DNA of 63,770 nucleotides, filler included, from Stramenopiles sp. TOSAG23-2 (lineage: Eukaryota), in assembly GCA_900128395.1 (NCBI GenBank). It is 45 parts of 45 records of this genome, joined end to end, with 100 filler letters (N's around TTAATTAATTAA, not from the genome) between each part and the next. Parts side by side here need not be neighbours in the genome. Positions count along the whole stretch, not along the records: positions 1 to 1,329 come from LT653161.1; 44 more parts are not named here. The stretch is one strand, 5' to 3'. Both the position numbers and the translations under genes were made by a program. Shown here piece after piece: positions 1-39,752 of this stretch. Within the stretch, counting starts at the first letter, position 1, and each line of letters opens with the position of its first letter. The notes beneath the pieces are model-generated. The model saw only the letters and a list, made by a program, of their open reading frames with translations. It had not been told where the DNA came from and ran no database searches.

Positions 1-7
1 AAATATA

Positions 8-256
8 ATGTTGTTTTATTATATGGACGACCATCTACGAGTCTTAGCGAGTTCTGTTAGCCATACCGATATTCAATATAAATGCCCTTACTTCCCTCAT
101 CAGTGCACCAGAAGACATCACCGTCACGGAAACAATATGAGAAGTTTAGCAAACACCACCACACATCGCATTATTAATGGATGTTGTGGACAAAGTAATG
201 CACACAGTGGTGTGTTTATCACCATCAATGACGATACACAAAAACTATCTGTATAA
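8..256 (+). CDS. small Cys/His-rich (putative Zn-binding) virus-type protein
   Basis: Pattern YKCP..C..HxHG..HR..CC..ITINDDT, recalled from small dsDNA-virus ORFs; converges tightly on the capsid gene. Confidence 0.5.
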   Translation: MLFYYMDDHLRVLASSVSHTDIQYKCPYFPHQCTRRHHRHGNNMRSLANTTTHRIINGCCGQSNAHSGVFITINDDTQKLSV

Positions 257-287
257 ACTTGTTTTAAATGAAAAAATAAGTTTATAA

Positions 288-1329
288 TTATGCTCCTGAA
301 ACAAACACTTGGTCATCCTTCATACTCAGTTGCCGCTCGCATTCAGCAAAACAATATAAATCGTAAGCTTTGCTTTGTTGGTTAGTTCGTCCTCTTGACA
401 TTCTAATTGTCACAGGTTGGTTTCCAATCGCGGTCCCATTCATAGGTTCGTTACTATTTATATCCTTGCTTAAGTTGAAACCATAATAGTGAGCATTACC
501 ATTTAAAGTATTAAATGCGTGTCCGTGCAATGTGCGATCTGTGGCAAAACACTGACTGATATCCATATTGTATTTTGTTGGTCCGCTCTCAAAAACTTGA
601 CCTTCCCAACTAGTTAAACCAACGGGTGCTTTAAATGGTGTAGGAAATGCTTGAGACAATTCATTCCAAGTTTTACAGTCCAAATTTACAGGTGAAGGGT
701 AAACGGGTTGATTGTTAATTGTAATTTGAACCTCCTCGTCTACAGCTTGAGTTCCTTCACTAACACAATTTCCTGCTAAAGCATTGGATGGACGACCAGT
801 TACAAAGTCAGGTGTTGGCGTTACTGCCGCAAAAATTCGCCTACATACTTGATTGTTCAAACCCAATAAATGCGTGATATCGTCCGCTTGTTTTGTTCCA
901 GCTGTAACCGCTGGATTAATTGNNNNNNNNNNNNNNNNNNNNNNNNNNNNNNNNNNNNNNNNNNNNNNNNNNNNNATTAATTTTCTTAAATGCAGAACCA
1001 ACCTTGACACTTACATTATCAGTAAAGGTAAGTGAAATACCTTTCTTGAGCTCTTCTTCCAAGCGTTCCATTACAGGCTGCTCATCAAGTTTATTATCGA
1101 AATAAATCAAATCGCAAACCATCTTGCACTTGTCAGCTACAATATTGTTACCAGCTGTGAAAGGAGCGTTTCTTACTGGACTAACTCTTTCTCCAGCGAA
1201 ATCCTGTGCAAAATCTAGAACAAGAGCAAACTGACCTAATAGTCCTAAAGGCAATTGGATTTGCGACATCATTGGGAACAAATCTTGAAGATAAATTCTA
1301 AATTCAGGTGTAGTAGCTGCACTTGTTCC
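288..1329 (-). CDS. PLV-type major capsid protein (double jelly-roll), 5' truncated
   Basis: Reads TPEFRIYLQDLFPMMSQIQLPL..KCKMVCDLIYF..QITINNQPVYPSPVN..YYGFNL..LYCFAECERQLSMKD, matching the motif order I recall for PLV MCPs. Both sides of the N gap (923-975) end in ATTAAT, so the ORF-track halves probably join as FKKINPAV. Confidence 0.78.
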
Positions 1330-16943: not shown

Positions 16944-17280
16944 GTTATGTTTATATTATTATTTATCACTTTTTAACTATAATTAATTATTGATAATTTA
17001 AATTATTATTTTTATTNNNNNNNNNNNNNNNNNNNNNNNNNNNNNNNNNNNNNNNNNNNNTTAATTAATTAANNNNNNNNNNNNNNNNNNNNNNNNNNNN
17101 NNNNNNNNNNNNNNNNTGTATTAAATTTGATACACACGTGCCGGTATATTATTTAAATGTGTTTTTATATATAATACAGGCATATCATATATATATTAAA
17201 AAAATATGATATCATAAACGCGCTCGTATGATATGATATATATTTTTTCCAATACCCGACGCATATTATCATTATATTAT

Positions 17281-17718
17281 TTATTCTGCTGTTGATGCAT
17301 TTGAGTTACTACGTGATTGATTTTTTGAAAATCGTTCATCACCTCCATAGACTCCACCACTTTCACTAAATTCTTTCATAAAATGTGTTTTACAAAGCAA
17401 TCTTAACCCCGACGTAGCAAAATTTGATATTGTTAATTGACCATTACAAGTTTCACATTTAGCGCATTTTTTGTGATATACTTTATCCCCCATACTTATT
17501 TTATCATCATTTGGATAAATCGTTTTATTGCAAGCACCACATTTTAAACTTGCACCACCAAACCTACTTTTTTTTCTAGTCTTTGATTTCTGTTTATCTA
17601 ATTTGATTCTTTCTGCAACACTTAAACGTTTTGGAGCTGCATCATTCGAAGGAAGTTCTGTTGCTTTATCGTCTAGCTCTTTATCGTCCTTCTTTTTCTT
17701 ATCATCCTCAACAGAGGC

Positions 17719-17760
<42 letters not shown>

Positions 17761-18324
17761 TTTAACAGGTTCAGGCTTTTTCTCAACATTAACAGGAGAA
17801 GTTGTTTCATTTTCGCATGTCGGACATGGTTCTGTTACAGCTATTTTTTTTGGTTTAACAGCTGTCTTTTCATTTGAAATTTTTGCTGCTTTCGTAGCTT
17901 GTATCATTTCTTTAACTGATTTTCTGTTGGATGATGCTACGACCTCTTCAGCAGATACAGCTTTTGTCTTGACAGCAGCTTGTGGTGGTGGTGCTGGTGG
18001 CTTTTTAGTAGCAGTCACAACTGGCGTATTTGGTTGGCTTGTCGTAGTAGCAGATGCGCTTGAGTTACTACGTGATTGATTTTTTGAAAATCGTTCATCA
18101 CCTCCATAGACTCCACCACTTTCACTAAATTCTTTCATAAAATGTGTTTTACAAAGCAATCTTAACCCCGATGTAGCAAAATTTGATATTGTTAATTGAC
18201 CATTACAAGTTTCACATTTAGCGCATTTTTTATGATATACTTTATCCCCCATACTTATTTTATCATCATTTGGATAAATCGTTTTACTACAACGACCACA
18301 TTTTAAACTCGTACCGAATTTCAT
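17281..18324 (-). CDS. two-LIM-domain (CRP/MLP-like) protein
   Basis: Two C-x2-C-x17-H-x2-C-x2-C-x2-C-x17-C-x2-H LIM domains joined by a Thr/Pro/Lys linker. Confidence 0.92.
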
Positions 18325-18909
18325 GGTAATGTTATTATACACAAAAGATATGCGTATATATATATATATATAATTATTATAAATTAAATTATTTCCTTTG
18401 TATTAAACAAAGGAAGTGTTTTGTTGATTGAATTAGAAANNNNNNNNNNNNNNNNNNNNNNNNNNNNNNNNNNNNNNNNNNNNTTAATTAATTAANNNNN
18501 NNNNNNNNNNNNNNNNNNNNNNNNNNNNNNNNNNNNNNNGTATACAATAGATAAAATACCATCATTTATCATAGAGGTAACATTCTTATCATCGAATGAA
18601 ATAAGTCTTGTATATCATGTTTTAATATATCTATTGCATTATCACCATAAATACATTCTTTGCATTGTTTTGTTGCTGTTGTTTGATACGTCAATGGTGT
18701 ATACATGAAATATAATATAATCGATTCAAATGTTTTATAATCAACATATGAATAATCAATCAACATATCCTGACCATCTTTTGAATTATTTTTATATATA
18801 AAATAATTTATCACATGAAAGATTAAATATCCATCTTTTCCATTCAGTTTTATTAATTCAGTTTCAATTAATGTTAAAATATTGTTTACTAGAGTTTGAT
18901 TTGTAATAC

Positions 18910-28497: not shown

Positions 28498-29766
28498 CGT
28501 ATGATATGTTACATATGCAGTGGTAGTTGTGATATTATTATTGTTATTATTATTACCAATACCTTCATTGTTATCCTTATTATCGCTTGGTGGTGATGAT
28601 ACTGGAGATACTTTTTTTTTCAAACTTTGTAATAATAATGGTATAGATTCAAATTGAAATAATAATTTCGTCGTTTCGTCACTATTTAACCCATTCCATT
28701 CTCCTGTGATTGCCATACGACCATCGATAGATGCACTCAGAAGGCAGTGTTCTACAATAACAGGTCCATATTTAGCAATTTCATATGGACATGATGTATC
28801 ATTACGATTTAAAAGAATTTGTTCGTCACTATTTAACCCATTCCATTCTCCTGTGATTGCCATACGACCATCGATAGATGCACTCAGAAGGCAGTGTTCT
28901 ACAATAACAGGTCCATATTTAGCAATTTCATATGGACATGATGTATCATTACGATTTAAAAGAATTTGTAATAATGAAATTTTCTTCTTATTTTTTTTCT
29001 TTTTCTGTCCACTACCACTACGTTTTTTCGCTCCATTTTTACTTTCTTTACTGTTATTTTTATCATTATCAACTATTTCTTGTGTATTAATAACTTTTGT
29101 TTCTAACTTTAGCTTATTATTATTATCTCCGTTAGTATCGTCATTATTATTAGTACCAAAATAATATGCTTTCATTTTTAATAACCATTTTTGATATTCT
29201 TGTACAAGAGTTTCATTTACGTCCTTTATTGATCGCGAGCTATGGGGTTTCAAATCGTTATTATTGCCAGAAGAGTCTTGAACAACTTTTAAATTATCTA
29301 CAGGATAAATTCCACCAACAACAACCTTTGTTTCTTCATCGTATGTATGCGATCTTAATAAAGCTAATATTTCATATGTATAATCAGTCAATATAATATT
29401 ACCTTTGTCATACATTTCTAATATTAAATGATAACAAGCTTCACCTTTTCCAAATGAAAAATCAACAACTCGATCACTACCTAATTGTTGGCATGAATAT
29501 AATATCCTAGTCCTGATATATTTCCTAAGTTTCATTGAAAACGGCGATGGAGCAGGTGACTTTTCACGTACATATTTTGTCGTATGAAACCGTACACCAC
29601 TTTCCATAATCAAAGTTAATTTAGGACAATCTTTTTTTTGCAATTTAAACAAATATGTTTTCAAATCTATATCATATAAATTAGCAACGCGATATCCAAC
29701 GCCCAGTTGGTTAATGTCCCGTACCGCTGCGACGACGTCTAACAATCCATAATTTCGTTTCGGCAT
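28498..29766 (-). CDS. NEMF: ribosome quality-control factor NEMF/Rqc2, N-terminal NFACT-N region
   Basis: GYRVANLYD, ESGVRFHTT, FSMKLRKYIRTR, QLGSDRVVDFSFG, LILEMYDKGNIILTD; contains a 147-bp exact duplication at 28675-28969. Confidence 0.93.
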
Positions 29767-30278
29767 GGTTGTTACTTGGTATTGATTCTTCAGCTTTATT
29801 ATTATTACTTCTATAGGTNNNNNNNNNNNNNNNNNNNNNNNNNNNNNNNNNNNNNNNNNNNNTTAATTAATTAANNNNNNNNNNNNNNNNNNNNNNNNNN
29901 NNNNNNNNNNNNNNNNNNAATATTTTATTGATTAATTTATAGTAATAATTACGATCCAAAAAACTAAAAAACACCACCACGGGGGCGGCAAAATTGTTAG
30001 AGTTATATTATAGGGTTTCACCGTTTTAACCTCTACACTGAGAGAATTTAAATTTTCTCTGCTCTTCTCGGCTATTGTAGCGTCGTGTGACCGTGATAAA
30101 AGAATGTATTAGTCTTTTCATTAACGCCCATTAAGCAAAATATCAATAACATTTTGTATATTTCTTGTTAAAAATTTTTACAGTAGCTACAAGTACATGT
30201 ACTATTAGTTGCACTATTAATACCAAAATCTCGTTCTTGAACTACAGTATAATACAGTATACAGTATAATTGCAACTA

Positions 30279-31338: not shown

Positions 31339-32658
31339 CCACCAAAATCTGGAAATCGCTTTCGTTTAAAACGATCAGCTACTTCAGTAAAAGCTCCTAT
31401 TGATGTATTTATGGTCCATATAATGTTACGTGCAAATACACCATTGCACCACCCGGCAAGACGTCAGCCATTTTTTCAAGTATGGAAAAGTGCAGTAAAA
31501 GGATCATTGCGCTGGACAAGAGTGTTGAAACAATGGGGCTGTAATTACGTTGGTGATTTAAAAAAATGTCCATTGCTTGATATCGGAATGCCACCAAACC
31601 TTTGCTTATTAATTCGTAAAATGTTATGGCATATTGAATCAGTCATTAATTGGATGATCGATATGTGTCNNNNNNNNNNNNNNNNNNNNNNNNNNNNNNN
31701 NNNNNNNNNNNNNNNNNNNNNNNNNNNNNNNNNNNNNNNNNNNNNNNNNNNNNNNNNNNNNNNNNNNNNNNNNNNNNNNAATCCACCGAAAAAAATGATT
31801 GCAGCAGATGGTTGGGATCCCGCGGAGGATCGCCAATTTATGACGGAGGAAGAGCGCTTCAGGCGTCCATTTACAGCACCAGCGATGGTAACCATGCAAA
31901 AAAACGTTATTGATAGAAAAAAATATAAAAAGAAATTAAAAGGAACGTTTCGTCCGAATACATCACCAGCAAGAACGCATATATCTCCTTCTCCAATTAG
32001 GAAAAGAAAGCGGAAGAAGAAAAAGAGAGGGAGAAAGATGCGTAAAGGTATTGCAAGCAATACTAGTAGGAGGAAAAACAAAAACAAACGCTCATTATCT
32101 CCCCCAGCACAATTTGCCTTGGAAGATGATTCAATTATATCTGTATCTGAAGGTATTTTATCAACACCACAACGTGGAGATGGTAGACCAGAAACAAGTC
32201 CATCACGCCCACGTGCATCTAGCTTTCAACAAGATCAACAATATGCATTGCGACCACCAAGACCTGGAACATCGCAAGGATTACATAGACAAGTAACATT
32301 TAATTTAACAAATCAACAAGACAACAATAGTCTGAATATAGGTTCGCGTCCAGGTACTGCCCCAGTGAATATCAACCAAAGGCAACGTAGCTCAAGAAGA
32401 AGAAGTAGCAGTCCAAGTGGCAGCAGGGGTATCATGAAGACGACAAGCAGCAGCAGTAGTAGAACTAATATATCAACGACTGATAGTGCCACTAGTACTA
32501 AATCTCCAAAACGACGTGTACAATCAGCATTGCGGCGTCCACGATCTGGTTACATGGCTCATATGAATGTGATAAACTCTAATCGTCCAGGGACAGCAGG
32601 GTATGATATGACTATGAAACATCAGAATGCATCAAGCATTAGTAATATTGGCAAAACA
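31339..32658 (+). CDS. hypothetical basic disordered protein with repeated RPx(T/S) motifs
   Basis: Long open frame across an internal gap; RPFTAP, RPNTSP, RPETSP, RPGTS, RPGTAP, RPGTAG. Confidence 0.6.
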
Positions 32659-35470: not shown

Positions 35471-36299
35471 AAATTCTATATGTTAATTGAAATTAAAANN
35501 NNNNNNNNNNNNNNNNNNNNNNNNNNNNNNNNNNNNNNNNNNTTAATTAATTAANNNNNNNNNNNNNNNNNNNNNNNNNNNNNNNNNNNNNNNNNNNNAT
35601 TTCATTTTAATTTATTTTCATATAATATTTCCTTAAAAAATAGATATAATGCTGGTGTATATAATTATCCATACTGATTTTTTGAGTGTTTTTAGTTGTC
35701 TCCTTCTGTATAGATTTAGGAGGCAAATTGTTTGAAAAAATAAAAAAAAAAAGATAATAAGTCTAATAATAAAAACAAACTAAAACAAGCCTAAGCCTAT
35801 GCATAAAGCTGTACATTATTAGCACATCACAACATTAAAAACATCAATATAAATAATAATAGAATATCCAAATTTCATTTTAATTTATTTTCATATAATA
35901 TTTCCTTAAAAAATAGATATAATGCTTGTGTATATTATCCATACTGATTTTTTGAGTGTTTTTTGCTGTATCCTTCTGTATAGATTTAGGAGGCAAATTA
36001 CTTATTGTTTGGTGCTTTTTATTTTGTTGAAAAAATAAAAAAGATGATAATTATTTAAATTCTACTAATAAAAATGTAAGTATATACTCATATTATTAAT
36101 AGTATACATTAATTATTTTAATTTATTAGCACATCACAACATTAAAAACATCAATATAAATAATAATAGAATATCCATTCATACACATATATACAAATAG
36201 AAATATATATACATACAGAAAAGTAAAACAGACAAACATCCAACCATACCTCTATTCTAACAATAACAATTGTTTTAATGTCAATCAGTCGTACATAAC

Positions 36300-36917
36300 A
36301 TGACGAGTATAGTAACAGATTTAACGGGTGATGATGATGAAACTGATGAAACTATTATTTGTAAAAGATGTACATTTATAAACTCATCCTTTTTAAATTA
36401 TTGTGAGCTTTGCGAGGCACCACTGAAAAATAATTTTATGTTAAATAATAATAATCAAAGTCCACAAGGCGGCATTACAAGGAAAAAAGAAATACAATCA
36501 GAACAACACGAGAAATCACAGAAACAACAATCGGTGGAAAGTTTACAAAATGAAAATACTGCACTTCGTAAAGAATTGCAAGAGTTGAGAAGACTTCATG
36601 ATGGTAAAAAGCGAAAAAATTTAACGGGTGATGATGATGAAACTGATGAAACTATTATTTGTAAAAGATGTACGTTCATAAACTCATCCTTTTTAAATTA
36701 TTGTGAACTTTGCGAGGCGCCACTGAAAAATAATTTTATGTTAAATAATAATAATCAAAGTCCAGAAGGCAGCATTACAAGGAAAAAAGAAATACAATCA
36801 GAACAACACGTCAAATCACAGAAACAACAATTGGTGGAAAGTTTACAAAATGAAAATACTGTACTTCGTAAAGAATTGCAAGAGTTGAGAAGACTTCATG
36901 ATGGTAAAAAGCGAAAA
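36300..36917 (+). CDS. tandem RanBP2/NZF zinc-finger + coiled-coil repeat protein, 3' truncated
   Basis: CKRCTFIN-x6-CELC twice, in a 300-bp repeat (36321 and 36621). Confidence 0.8.
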
Positions 36918-37017
36918 NNNNNNNNNNNNNNNNNNNNNNNNNNNNNNNNNNNNNNNNNNNNTTAATTAATTAANNNNNNNNNNNNNNNNNNNNNNNNNNN
37001 NNNNNNNNNNNNNNNNN

Positions 37018-38335: not shown

Positions 38336-38636
38336 NNNNNNNNNNNNNNNNNNNNNNNNNNNNNNNNNNNNNNNNNNNNTTAATTAATTAANNNNNNNNN
38401 NNNNNNNNNNNNNNNNNNNNNNNNNNNNNNNNNNNGTATAGGATACTCCTCCCAATTGGAACTTCCGTTTATCTTGTAATAGCATTAAATCCCGTTCAAA
38501 ACCATCGTATTCAATGGAAATCCGTTCAACGGTAGTATATATAATCGTATCCATGGATATATCAGATGTGCAAGCAAAGGATAAAACTGCGAAAGGATAA
38601 AAAGGACACTATATAAATGGATATCTTCTCTTTTAA

Positions 38637-39131
38637 ATGAATTATACCAATGAACATTTTAAAGAGAATGACTGCTGGACTACCCCCAAAAGTGTATGGC
38701 AATCGATTCAGCATCTCATTCCAACGGGTATAACATTATTTGATCCTTTTTACTACGATGGACAATCTGGAAAAGATCTAAAACAGGTGTTTCCAAATAA
38801 CAAAATCATTCATGAGGAAGGAATCGATTTCTTCGATCATTCTGTGGCTTACGATATGATTTTAACCAATCCTCCATTCTCGAAAGCCAAATCCATCTTA
38901 CGGAGGCTCAGACAGGTAGGAAAGCCATTTATGGTATTGCTTCCTACCCCTAGAATTAATACGCAGTACTTCATTGAGTTATTTAGAGACGATGATAATC
39001 TTCAGCTGGTCATCCCATCGAAGAGAATTCATTTTGTGTCGAATGAATTAAATAGAAAGAGCAATGCCAATTTTGATTGCGTATGGATAGCCTATAAATG
39101 TAAATTACCAAGAGATATTCTATTTTTGTGA
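38637..39131 (+). CDS. small DNA N6-adenine methyltransferase
   Basis: DCWTTP, LFDPFYYDGQSG (SAM binding), DFF, ILTNPPF (catalytic), PFMVLLP, RIHF. Confidence 0.88.
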   Translation: MNYTNEHFKENDCWTTPKSVWQSIQHLIPTGITLFDPFYYDGQSGKDLKQVFPNNKIIHEEGIDFFDHSVAYDMILTNPPFSKAKSILRRLRQVGKPFMVLLPTPRINTQYFIELFRDDDNLQLVIPSKRIHFVSNELNRKSNANFDCVWIAYKCKLPRDILFL

Positions 39132-39138
39132 TGTATTT

Positions 39139-39280
39139 GGATCGATAATGATTGATATGTCCAGTGCTGTGTGCCTGCTAATCAGAGATCGAATAAAAGC
39201 CATTGGATGTTTTCACATTTGATCGCTAATAATCGATATTTCCTATGCTGTGTGCCTGTTAATCAGAGATCGAACAAACA
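39139..39280. repeat. 81-bp-period intergenic direct repeat containing the dispersed 18-bp motif on the minus strand
   Basis: TGCTGTGTGCCTGYTAATCAGAGATCGAAYAAA at 39165 and 39246. Confidence 0.85.
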
Positions 39281-39386
39281 GGTATCAAGATATCGATCAT
39301 CTCGAAATTTTGTGATATCACAGTATATATACATGTTCAAGGATATTACAAAATATACACACATAACCCAATATAAAAAACAAAAA

Positions 39387-39752
39387 ATGAAACCAAATAT
39401 GTTTATGCGATACGGTTTTCGGTTTTTCTATAAAGAGAAAGATTTAGAAGCCAGTGCACACAACCCCAATGAGATTCAATTTAATATGGATGTACCCGGA
39501 AAAAGAGGCGCAAAATTTTTCGGTTATGGCACACCAGAAAAGATATATAATACTATTAAAGAATATTATGACAGAAAAATCCCGTTGTCTTTCTATGAAT
39601 TACGGGATAAACATAAACCATGTAATCTCTATGTCGATATCGATTCCTTAGCGGCATCGAAAGAATCCTATGATGAGAATACATTCCTAAAACAGGCCCG
39701 CGACGATTTCAATCGCTTCGGAATCACTGAACCATGGAACATACAACGTAGT
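39387..39752 (+). CDS. archaeo-eukaryotic primase (PrimPol/D5-like) N-terminus, 3' truncated
   Basis: GAKFF..FYEL..PCNLYVDID matches AEP motif I (YE..PC.LY.DxD). Confidence 0.8.

What the first reader, a model, noticed from the sequence alone, without database searches (positions are those of the whole stretch)
1..1329. Polinton-like virus capsid gene among protist contigs
Seen: a minus-strand ORF with DLFP..QLPL, KMVCDLIY, INNQPVYP and C-terminal FAECER motifs, and a convergent small Cys/His ORF. Knowledge: this motif order matches PLV double-jelly-roll capsids, and PLVs are often endogenous in protists. Inference: a divergent PLV either integrated in, or co-sorted with, a probably uncultured stramenopile, giving a possible virus-host link.
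Basis: partly seen in the sequence, partly recalled or inferred. Interest (0 to 1): 0.7.

Follow-up and report, generated by a model that had tools for sequence, protein, structure and literature searches.

The report
Fragment of a three-capsid polinton-like virus
The first short scaffold of this window carries two thirds of a capsid gene from a known group of small marine DNA viruses (Trimcap polinton-like viruses), but nothing here shows whether the virus is integrated in the protist or merely travelled with the cell.

Summary
Window 1-1329 is one 1.3-kb scaffold of 45 joined by N/TTAATTAATTAA linkers. Its minus strand encodes the C-terminal 326 residues of a ~482-aa protein, and the 53-N gap inside it is spurious. 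A convergent 82-aa Cys/His ORF is conserved next to the same gene elsewhere.

A 94-100 % identical full-length homologue folds confidently as a double jelly-roll major capsid protein. In homologous contigs this gene is the last of a row of divergent capsid genes: the gene just upstream also folds as a double jelly-roll, and a third upstream gene is weakly capsid-like. More distant IMG/VR relatives (10-30 kb contigs, one with inverted terminal repeats) add an A32-like ATPase and several DNA methyltransferases.

This is the published "Trimcap" polinton-like virus group, already reported from unclassified stramenopile assemblies. dN/dS of about 0.08 indicates a functional virus lineage.

The host link is unresolved. 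Identical pieces lie in two small runs of one coded organism, but no contig reaches host DNA, and a related contig is an amplification-type chimera. It is a known kind, of low novelty.

The parts
288..1329 (-). 3' two thirds of a double jelly-roll major capsid protein gene (the third capsid gene, 'MCPc', of a Trimcap-type polinton-like virus). Codons lie at 976-1329 and 291-920, with the stop at 288-290. This is residues 157-482 of a 482-aa protein; the 5' end is cut by the scaffold end.
   Evidence: Translations. Homologues 94-100 % identical: P0004 and L001. AF2 model of P0004: pLDDT 87.5, pTM 0.86. Foldseek matches to SGIV, PBCV-1, Sputnik and mavirus capsid proteins at E 1e-14 to 1e-18. 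dN/dS 0.084 and 0.075 over 326 codons.
923..975 (.). Spurious scaffold gap of 53 N. The flanks overlap by 7 nt (915-921 = 976-982, 'attaatt'); base 922 is an unmatched end base.
   Evidence: A contig of run X3 joins 914 to 976 with 7 shared letters. blastn places 1-921 on L001 2136-1199 and 976-1329 on L001 1205-852. Homologues read ...SAFKKINPAVTAG... without a break.
8..256 (+). Convergent small Cys/His-rich ORF of 82 aa (CPYFPHQC ... HRHGNN ... THRIINGCC). It is a conserved neighbour of the capsid gene. Its function is unknown; a zinc-binding role is my guess.
   Evidence: 78 % identity to L002 2461-2706(-) in the same position and about 91 % to L001. Distant copies at 30-34 % in L044 and L046 (E 3e-7 and 1e-6), with weaker pattern matches in L028, L062 and L024. 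No Pfam or PHROG family.
257..287 (.). 31-bp AT-rich spacer between the two convergent stop codons.
   Evidence: Sequence.
38637..39131 (+). On a different scaffold of the window (38436-39752): a Dam-like N6-adenine DNA methyltransferase that resembles methyltransferases of Trimcap-like virus contigs. It is probably a second piece of a polinton-like virus in the same assembly.
   Evidence: Pfam Dam 3e-9. 30-42 % identity over about 157-199 aa to 14 IMG/VR loci, E 1e-20 to 2e-36, for example L010, L017, L020 and L028 11635-12201 directly after the capsid gene.

Best explanation
Scaffold 1-1329 is a fragment of the structural module of a Trimcap-type polinton-like virus, a dsDNA virus of protists with a genome of about 25-30 kb.

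The minus-strand gene encodes one of that group's divergent double jelly-roll major capsid proteins. By gene order in relatives it is the last of the row. Such proteins form pseudo-hexameric trimers that tile an icosahedral shell. In this group the three paralogues probably build mixed (heterotrimeric) capsomers, and the genome is packaged by an A32-like ATPase. The small convergent Cys/His gene is a conserved accessory gene of unknown role.

Shown here: the ORF, its family, the fold, the synteny, purifying selection, and its presence in two small runs of one organism label. Inferred: capsid assembly, the heterotrimer (taken from the 2026 preprint's modelling of group B), and any host relation.

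The physical state of the DNA is not resolved. It may be integrated, replicating or latent in the cell, or ingested or adsorbed. I rate non-integrated states together as somewhat more likely than integration.
For: Fold:
- The AF2 model of P0004 (100 % identical to the window over 976-1329 and 94 % over 291-920) has pLDDT 87.5.
- Its best PDB and BFVD matches are all double jelly-roll capsid proteins, at E 1e-13 to 5e-20.
- The family profile hits PBCV-1 MCPv4 at E 0.011.
- Pfam Capsid_N matches 6 of 32 members.
- The nearest ESM Atlas cluster is viral (92 %), mostly Preplasmiviricota.

Synteny:
- In L004 and L002 the gene directly upstream (440 aa) also folds as a double jelly-roll (pLDDT 71.6; Foldseek E 3.5e-14 to EhV-201, PBCV-1 and mavirus capsid proteins).
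- A third upstream protein is weakly capsid-like: hhalign E 7e-5 with probability 62 %, Capsid_N in 2 of 30 members, and an Atlas NCLDV-capsid cluster at 0.96.
- The second capsid gene is found in 105 of 108 related loci and the first in 85 of 108.
- A 265-aa P-loop protein is found in 52 loci, and Pox_A32 matches 4 of 30 of its members, best E 2.5e-5.
- L002 also carries a DUF5906/SF3 helicase at 2e-16.
- One related 28.6-kb record has inverted terminal repeats.

Literature:
- The Trimcap group is defined by three capsid genes (PMC7805220, passage).
- It was found in unclassified stramenopile assemblies (PMC10120064, passage).
- It is about 10 % of IMG/VR PLV genomes and is associated with MAST hosts (bioRxiv 10.64898/2026.06.19.733378, section 7 read).

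Selection and occurrence:
- dN/dS is 0.084 and 0.075.
- Pieces with no differences from the window lie in runs X1 and X2, which are two samples of one study and one organism label. They overlap each other over 402-560.
Against: - The window itself holds only this one capsid gene fragment. The three-gene arrangement is seen in relatives (55-92 % identical protein), not in this assembly, whose genome is not held.
- The window fragments alone match no Pfam, PHROG or PDB entry.
- The closest IMG/VR capsid genes are only 32-34 % identical, and I could not score the gene against the published Trimcap A1-A3 profiles.
- No penton protein was identified.
- The ATPase and third-capsid assignments rest on weak profile matches. 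A six-frame Pox_A32 search of 4 whole records found 0 of 4.
- X1 and X2 may be the very runs the scaffold was assembled from, so their identity to the window is not independent support.
Confidence: 0.85

Rival explanations
1. The fragment is part of an endogenous copy (provirus) integrated in the nuclear genome of the protist, inherited by its cells.
For: - Bellas et al. 2023 treat Trimcap capsid genes in unclassified stramenopile assemblies as endogenous elements (passage). The 2026 preprint repeats the MAST association.
- The same variant occurs in two separately sequenced samples of one organism label, while environmental relatives differ by 4-16 % in DNA.
- A second PLV-like scaffold lies in the same window.
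Against: - No contig of X1 or X2 runs from the virus into other DNA; their pieces are 153-285 bp.
- The 1.3-kb scaffold is viral end to end.
- No tyrosine recombinase or rve integrase was found in 4 of 4 related 28-29 kb records. This is weak, because the same kind of search also missed the ATPase.
- One related record has terminal inverted repeats like a free linear genome.
- Strong purifying selection fits a circulating virus at least as well.
- The X1/X2 overlap is only 159 nt.
Confidence: 0.3
2. The DNA comes from virions or replicating genomes that were in or on the sorted cell (an infection, ingested particles or adsorbed particles), or from cross-well carry-over. In that case the link to the protist is ecological at most.
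For: - Close relatives (84-96 % DNA identity) are common in marine metagenomes and in oligo-dT metatranscriptome contigs of many studies.
- GC is 38.3 %, equal to relatives from unrelated metagenomes (37.1-37.2 %). It is second highest of the 45 scaffolds, whose others average 31.3 % with SD 3.3.
- A cluster member, P0012, fuses this capsid gene to an ATP-grasp (CPSase_L_D2, 1.5e-11) fragment, an amplification-type chimera. This shows that such assemblies mix molecules.
Against: - The same variant lies in two samples of one organism label, and next to none of its words lie in one run of another label in that study. That run is tiny, so this is weak.
- The GC difference is only z = 2.1, and coding-rich host scaffolds reach 36-40 %.
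Confidence: 0.55
3. The gene is a capsid paralogue of a giant virus (Nucleocytoviricota) or of a virophage, not of a polinton-like virus.
For: - The best structural matches include iridovirus, chlorovirus, pithovirus, Sputnik and mavirus capsid proteins.
- Weak Capsid_N matches.
- Giant viruses also carry several capsid paralogues (preprint).
Against: - All 108 related loci lie on contigs of 30 kb or less, and one 28.6-kb record has terminal repeats.
- None of the 32 family members matched Capsid_NCLDV or the Sputnik capsid Pfam families at E <= 1.
- The gene set around the capsid genes (small ATPase, methyltransferases, SF3 helicase) is that of PLVs.
- Structural E-values do not separate these groups.
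Confidence: 0.05

Closest known systems
Trimcap (tri-major capsid) group A polinton-like viruses (Bellas & Sommaruga 2021, PMC7805220; 2026 preprint 10.64898/2026.06.19.733378; also called 'group X')
   Same: - A row of highly divergent double jelly-roll capsid genes in the close relatives L004 and L002 and in 105 of 108 related loci.
- An A32-like ATPase and several methyltransferases in related contigs.
- Marine origin, contigs of 10-30 kb, and a reported link to unclassified or MAST stramenopiles.
   Different: - Only a 326-residue fragment of one capsid gene is in the window.
- Its sub-lineage (P0004, P0005, P0006, P0019; SH-aLRT 100 in a quick tree) is 32-34 % identical to the nearest IMG/VR capsid genes found.
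- Downstream genes in L002 (a 717-aa ORF and an SF3 helicase) differ from the methyltransferase plus ~2000-aa ORF seen in IMG/VR relatives.
- It was not scored against the published A1-A3 profiles.
Virophage capsid proteins (Sputnik V20, PDB 3j26; mavirus, PDB 6g45)
   Same: Double jelly-roll fold; Foldseek E 1e-15 and 3.5e-14, TM about 0.5-0.58.
   Different: - Sequence identity is about 11 %.
- No Sputnik_MCP Pfam match.
- Relatives carry several capsid genes, not one.
- No cysteine protease or integrase was seen in the ORFs and records tested.
Giant-virus capsid proteins (PBCV-1 Vp54 and MCPv4, SGIV MCP)
   Same: Best structural matches (E 8e-18 to 1e-15). The only sequence-profile hit in the PDB is 8h2i MCPv4 at E 0.011. 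Giant viruses also have multiple capsid paralogues.
   Different: Genome scale is 30 kb or less, against hundreds of kb. No Capsid_NCLDV Pfam match.

Membership tests
Double jelly-roll major capsid proteins (kingdom Bamfordvirae) | Two consecutive eight-stranded jelly-roll domains in one chain | tested here: met
   The AF2 model of the 94-100 % identical full-length homologue has pLDDT 87.5 and pTM 0.86. At least 280 PDB chains match at E <= 1e-3, and all 26 rows listed are viral capsid entries. The window fragment covers the end of the first domain and the whole second domain.
Polinton-like viruses (Aquintoviricetes) | A32-like (FtsK/HerA) packaging ATPase in the same genome | tested here: inconclusive
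   A 265-aa P-loop protein lies in 52 of 108 related loci. Its consensus has Walker A GKS and Walker B DD. Pox_A32 matches 4 of 30 members, best E 2.5e-5. It is absent from the short close relatives L001-L004 and cannot be tested in the window's own assembly.
Polinton-like viruses (Aquintoviricetes) | Minor capsid (penton) protein with a single jelly-roll | not tested
The C-terminus of the 717-aa L002 ORF weakly resembles a 437-aa ORF of L028 (E 8.5e-5); neither was folded.
Polinton-like viruses (Aquintoviricetes) | Small dsDNA genome (about 15-40 kb) without the pPolB plus rve integrase pair of Polintons | tested here: met
   This holds for relatives only. Their contigs are 2.4-29.6 kb, and one 28.6-kb record has terminal inverted repeats. 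rve was found in 0 of 4 records and tyrosine recombinase in 0 of 4. pPolB was not searched.
Trimcap group | Three distinct, highly divergent major capsid protein genes in one genome | tested here: inconclusive
   - Two are shown to be double jelly-rolls: this family and its upstream neighbour.
- The third is supported only weakly.
- The arrangement is present in L004 (55 % identical capsid protein) and in part in L002 (92 %).
- The window's scaffold ends before the upstream genes.
Endogenous viral element | A junction between viral and host chromosomal DNA | tested here: not met
   The scaffold aligns to viral relatives over 1-921 and 976-1329. No contig of X1 or X2 runs on into unlike sequence. 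Contigs only; raw read pairs were not available.
Virophages (Maveriviricetes) | Sputnik/mavirus-type capsid protein family and a cysteine protease | tested here: not met
   No Sputnik_MCP_1st or MCP_V20_C match in the 32 members. No peptidase family was found in the 26 neighbouring ORFs scanned.

The most novel reading that the evidence does not exclude
An intact Trimcap polinton-like virus, still kept under selection, is a heritable resident (integrated or persistent) of an uncultured marine stramenopile lineage, with the same clone present in separately sorted cells. It would then be a candidate inducible provirus, possibly acting like a virophage against giant viruses of that host. This would give a first concrete host for the commonest marine PLV group.
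Probability: 0.25. Interest if true: 0.5.

Novelty: new member of a known kind. Interest (0 to 1): 0.22.

Why it matters
[quoted passage not shown] A capsid fragment found with single cells of an uncultured protist is a lead to a host, but this association is already in print at group level. The present data cannot separate integration from infection, ingestion or carry-over.

The practical gains are small:
- The scaffold gap can be closed.
- The gene can be annotated as a Trimcap-type major capsid protein.
- A second scaffold (38436-39752) can be flagged as probably viral.

Tried and rejected
- **Window fragments against libraries:** Pfam, PHROGs and PDB sequences gave nothing usable. Pfam on the three closest full-length homologues also gave nothing.
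- **PDB profile searches:** A1 gave none. A6, A7 and A8 gave only chance-level P-loop or unrelated hits.
- **IMG/VR scans:** P0003, P0004 and alignment A1 found no relative. These scans depend on patterns, so absence is not shown.
- **Own genome:** not held, so the assembly could not be searched for the ATPase, the penton or a recombinase.
- **Run holders:** X9 (oligo-dT RNA) holds only 88-95 % relatives, so transcription of this copy is not shown. Parts of the scaffold without cover in X1 and X2 mean nothing.
- **ORF 39156-39752 as a primase related to the L002 helicase protein:** no real similarity and no match in the 108 loci.
- **Profile comparison of the second capsid family with this one:** not significant (probability 4 %). 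Their kinship rests on fold only.
- **Six-frame Pox_A32 search of 4 records:** 0 of 4, although the ATPase family is there. Pfam-level negatives for integrases are therefore weak. L016's record was not held.
- **Yutin et al. 2015 (PMC4642659):** term searches for the SP03/SPO3 genome or for several capsid genes found no passage.
- **Earlier notes of this scan:** by place and by sequence, nothing.
- **Tree:** the careful tree did not finish, so only the quick tree is reported. 57 of 112 rows were dropped as >= 80 % identical to a kept row.
- **Supplements:** these are closed. Table S4 of PMC10120064 may list this very record.

Full report
**What the window is.** The 63,770-base window is not one molecule. 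It is 45 scaffolds of 1309-1329 bp, sorted by length and joined by N44-TTAATTAATTAA-N44 linkers. The finding covers exactly the first scaffold (1-1329). The other scaffolds are AT-rich (mean GC 31.3 %, SD 3.3) and carry eukaryote-like ORFs with poly-Asn runs, ankyrin and LIM-like repeats and similar features. No whole genome is held for the window.

**The observation.**
- The minus strand is open from 1329 down to 976 (118 aa, cut by the scaffold end) and from 920 down to 291 (210 aa, stop at 288-290).
They coincide with the best conserved columns of the protein family.
- The 53-N gap between the two pieces is an artefact. Bases 915-921 and 976-982 are the same 7 nt. A marine metagenome contig (run X3, record 12) joins 914 to 976. 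blastn places the two flanks on overlapping coordinates of L001. Full-length homologues read straight through...SAFKKINPAVTAG....
- The scaffold therefore encodes residues 157-482 of a 482-aa protein.
- The convergent 82-aa Cys/His ORF (8-256, +) is real in the sense that matters. The same ORF sits in the same convergent position after the same gene in L001 (about 91 % identical) and L002 (78 %). Distant copies lie on two IMG/VR contigs.

**What the protein is.**
- The fragments alone match nothing in Pfam, PHROGs or PDB sequences.
- A word-indexed search for longer proteins found full-length homologues of 482-490 aa at 94, 81 and 50 % identity.
- An exhaustive HMMER search found 55 representative clusters at E <= 1e-3, of which 19 are at <= 1e-10, mostly 470-550 aa.
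- With a 32-sequence alignment, AlphaFold2 models P0004 at pLDDT 87.5 and pTM 0.86 as two beta-sandwich domains.
- Foldseek's best PDB matches are the capsid proteins of Singapore grouper iridovirus, PBCV-1, Sputnik, mavirus, faustovirus and EhV-201, at E 8e-18 to 6e-13.
- The BFVD list is likewise capsid proteins of pithoviruses, virophages, adintovirus and others.
- Sequence-level support is weak but consistent. The family profile hits PBCV-1 MCPv4 at E 0.011. Capsid_N matches 6 of 32 members, best E 9.6e-4. The nearest ESM Atlas cluster is 92 % viral, mainly Preplasmiviricota.
- The protein is a double jelly-roll major capsid protein.

**Which virus.**
- One metagenome scan returned four contigs with close relatives.
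- L002 (7.5 kb, capsid protein 92 % identical) reads in this order: a 305+ aa ORF, the capsid gene, the small Cys/His ORF (convergent), a 717-aa ORF, and a 773+ aa protein with a DUF5906/SF3-helicase domain at 2e-16.
- L004 (55 % identical) reads: the end of a long ORF, a 440-aa ORF, then the capsid gene.
- The 440-aa protein was modelled from 33 homologues (pLDDT 71.6, pTM 0.75). It is itself a double jelly-roll; the best matches are EhV-201, PBCV-1, SGIV, mavirus and Sputnik capsid proteins at E 3.5e-14 to 8e-13. It has no significant profile similarity to the first family.
- The long ORF further upstream (543 aa in L028) is probably a third one. hhalign against the capsid family gives E 7e-5 with probability 62 %. 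Capsid_N matches 2 of 30 members. An NCLDV-capsid cluster appears among its Atlas neighbours.
- IMG/VR scans with two sub-alignments gave 104 further loci on contigs of 4-30 kb. All 108 loci match P0004.
- Of the 108 loci, 105 have the second capsid gene (mostly directly upstream), 85 have the first, and 52 have a 265-aa P-loop protein.
- That P-loop protein matches Pox_A32 in 4 of 30 members.
- Several DNA methyltransferases are present. A conserved ORF of about 2000 aa with no known family follows the capsid genes in 47 loci.
- One 28.6-kb record has inverted terminal repeats.

**Match to the literature.** A row of three very different capsid genes is the defining trait of the Trimcap group.
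- Bellas & Sommaruga 2021 (passage read): all 39 members encode three distinct MCP genes.
- Their 2026 preprint (section 7 read): Trimcap A is about 10 % of the PLV genomes retrieved from IMG/VR. It is associated with MAST stramenopiles through endogenous elements, and a heterotrimeric capsomer was modelled for group B.
- Bellas et al. [quoted passage not shown]
- In a quick tree, the window's lineage (P0004, P0005, P0006, P0019) is a well supported clade. It sits inside a 16-row group that includes IMG/VR Trimcap-like contigs.

**State of the gene.** Against L001 and L002 the 326 codons show dS 0.44 and 0.72 and dN 0.037 and 0.054, giving dN/dS of 0.084 and 0.075 with no stop or frameshift. 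This lineage is or was recently under selection as a working capsid gene. That fits a circulating virus, and it fits a recently integrated one as well.

**Host link.**
- Words of the scaffold are held best by two very small runs (17-21 million letters) of one coded organism and one study (X1 0.54, X2 0.35). Marine metagenomes and oligo-dT metatranscriptomes hold them at shares of 0.24 or less.
- When laid, X1 and X2 contigs are identical to the window, and to each other over 402-560. X3 and X9 hold relatives at 88-99 %.
- These runs may be the source of the assembly, so identity to the window is not independent. That two samples carry the same variant is a mild sign of a real association.
- No contig leaves the virus for other DNA.
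- The scaffold's GC (38.3 %) equals that of relatives from unrelated samples (37.1-37.2 %) and is only 2.1 SD above the other scaffolds, so composition decides nothing.
- One member of the 90 % cluster, P0012, joins this capsid gene to an ATP-grasp fragment. P0013 also carries a foreign-looking start that I could not assign. Junctions in such amplified data cannot be trusted singly.
- No integrase was found in four related 28-29 kb records, but the same approach also missed the ATPase.
- A second scaffold of the window (38436-39752) encodes a Dam-like methyltransferase. It is 30-42 % identical to methyltransferases on 14 of the Trimcap-like loci. More than one piece of such a virus is therefore in the assembly.

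**Verdict.** The thing is a fragment of a known, abundant group whose association with unclassified stramenopile assemblies is already published. Whether it is integrated remains open. Supplementary tables that might list this very record could not be read.

Noticed in passing
window 1-63770: The window is a chain of 45 unrelated short scaffolds (1309-1329 bp, sorted by length) joined by N44-TTAATTAATTAA-N44 linkers. Neighbourhood in the window therefore carries no genomic meaning.
   Followed up: yes
window 38436-39752: The scaffold carries a Dam-like N6-adenine methyltransferase (38637-39131) that resembles methyltransferases of Trimcap-like virus contigs. A following open ORF (39156-39752) has no family and no match in the 108 loci. 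The scaffold is probably viral too.
   Followed up: partly
proteins P0012 and P0013 (members of the 90 % cluster of P0004): P0012 is a chimeric gene call: residues 1-35 are an ATP-grasp (CPSase_L_D2) fragment fused in frame to the capsid protein. P0013 has an unrelated 24-residue start. They look like amplification chimeras in other assemblies holding this virus.
   Followed up: partly
L028 12346-18297, L016 11565-18656, L023 12237-18245, L018 8498-13717: A conserved giant ORF (1739-2363 aa) lies just downstream of the capsid genes in IMG/VR Trimcap-like contigs. It is found in 47 of 108 loci. The one copy scanned (L028) has no Pfam family, and it has a Gly/Gln/Arg-rich tail. Function unknown.
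   Followed up: no
window 8-256; L001 1863-2126; L002 2461-2706; L044 19157-19432; L046 12985-13260: A small protein family shares the pattern Y-x-CP-x(2-4)-C ... H-x-HG ... R-x(2)-H-R/C ... I-x-I-x-D-x-T. It is conserved next to or near the capsid genes and matches no known family.
   Followed up: partly
window 976-1329 versus 1-921: DNA identity to L001 is 96.3 % on one side of the false gap and 87.1 % on the other. Both sides are held without differences by run X1. This suggests recombination between virus variants rather than a mixed assembly.
   Followed up: partly
window 28498-29818, 17117-18439, 36279-36965: Several host-like scaffolds contain internal near-exact tandem duplications of 45-110 residues in their ORFs (for example LLNRNDTSCPYEIAKYGPVIVEH... 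occurs twice). These are either real repeats or assembly or amplification artefacts.
   Followed up: no
window 31339-32658: This scaffold has the highest GC of the 45 (40.4 %). It holds an internal 110-N gap and a Ser/Arg/Pro-rich ORF spanning the whole scaffold.
   Followed up: no
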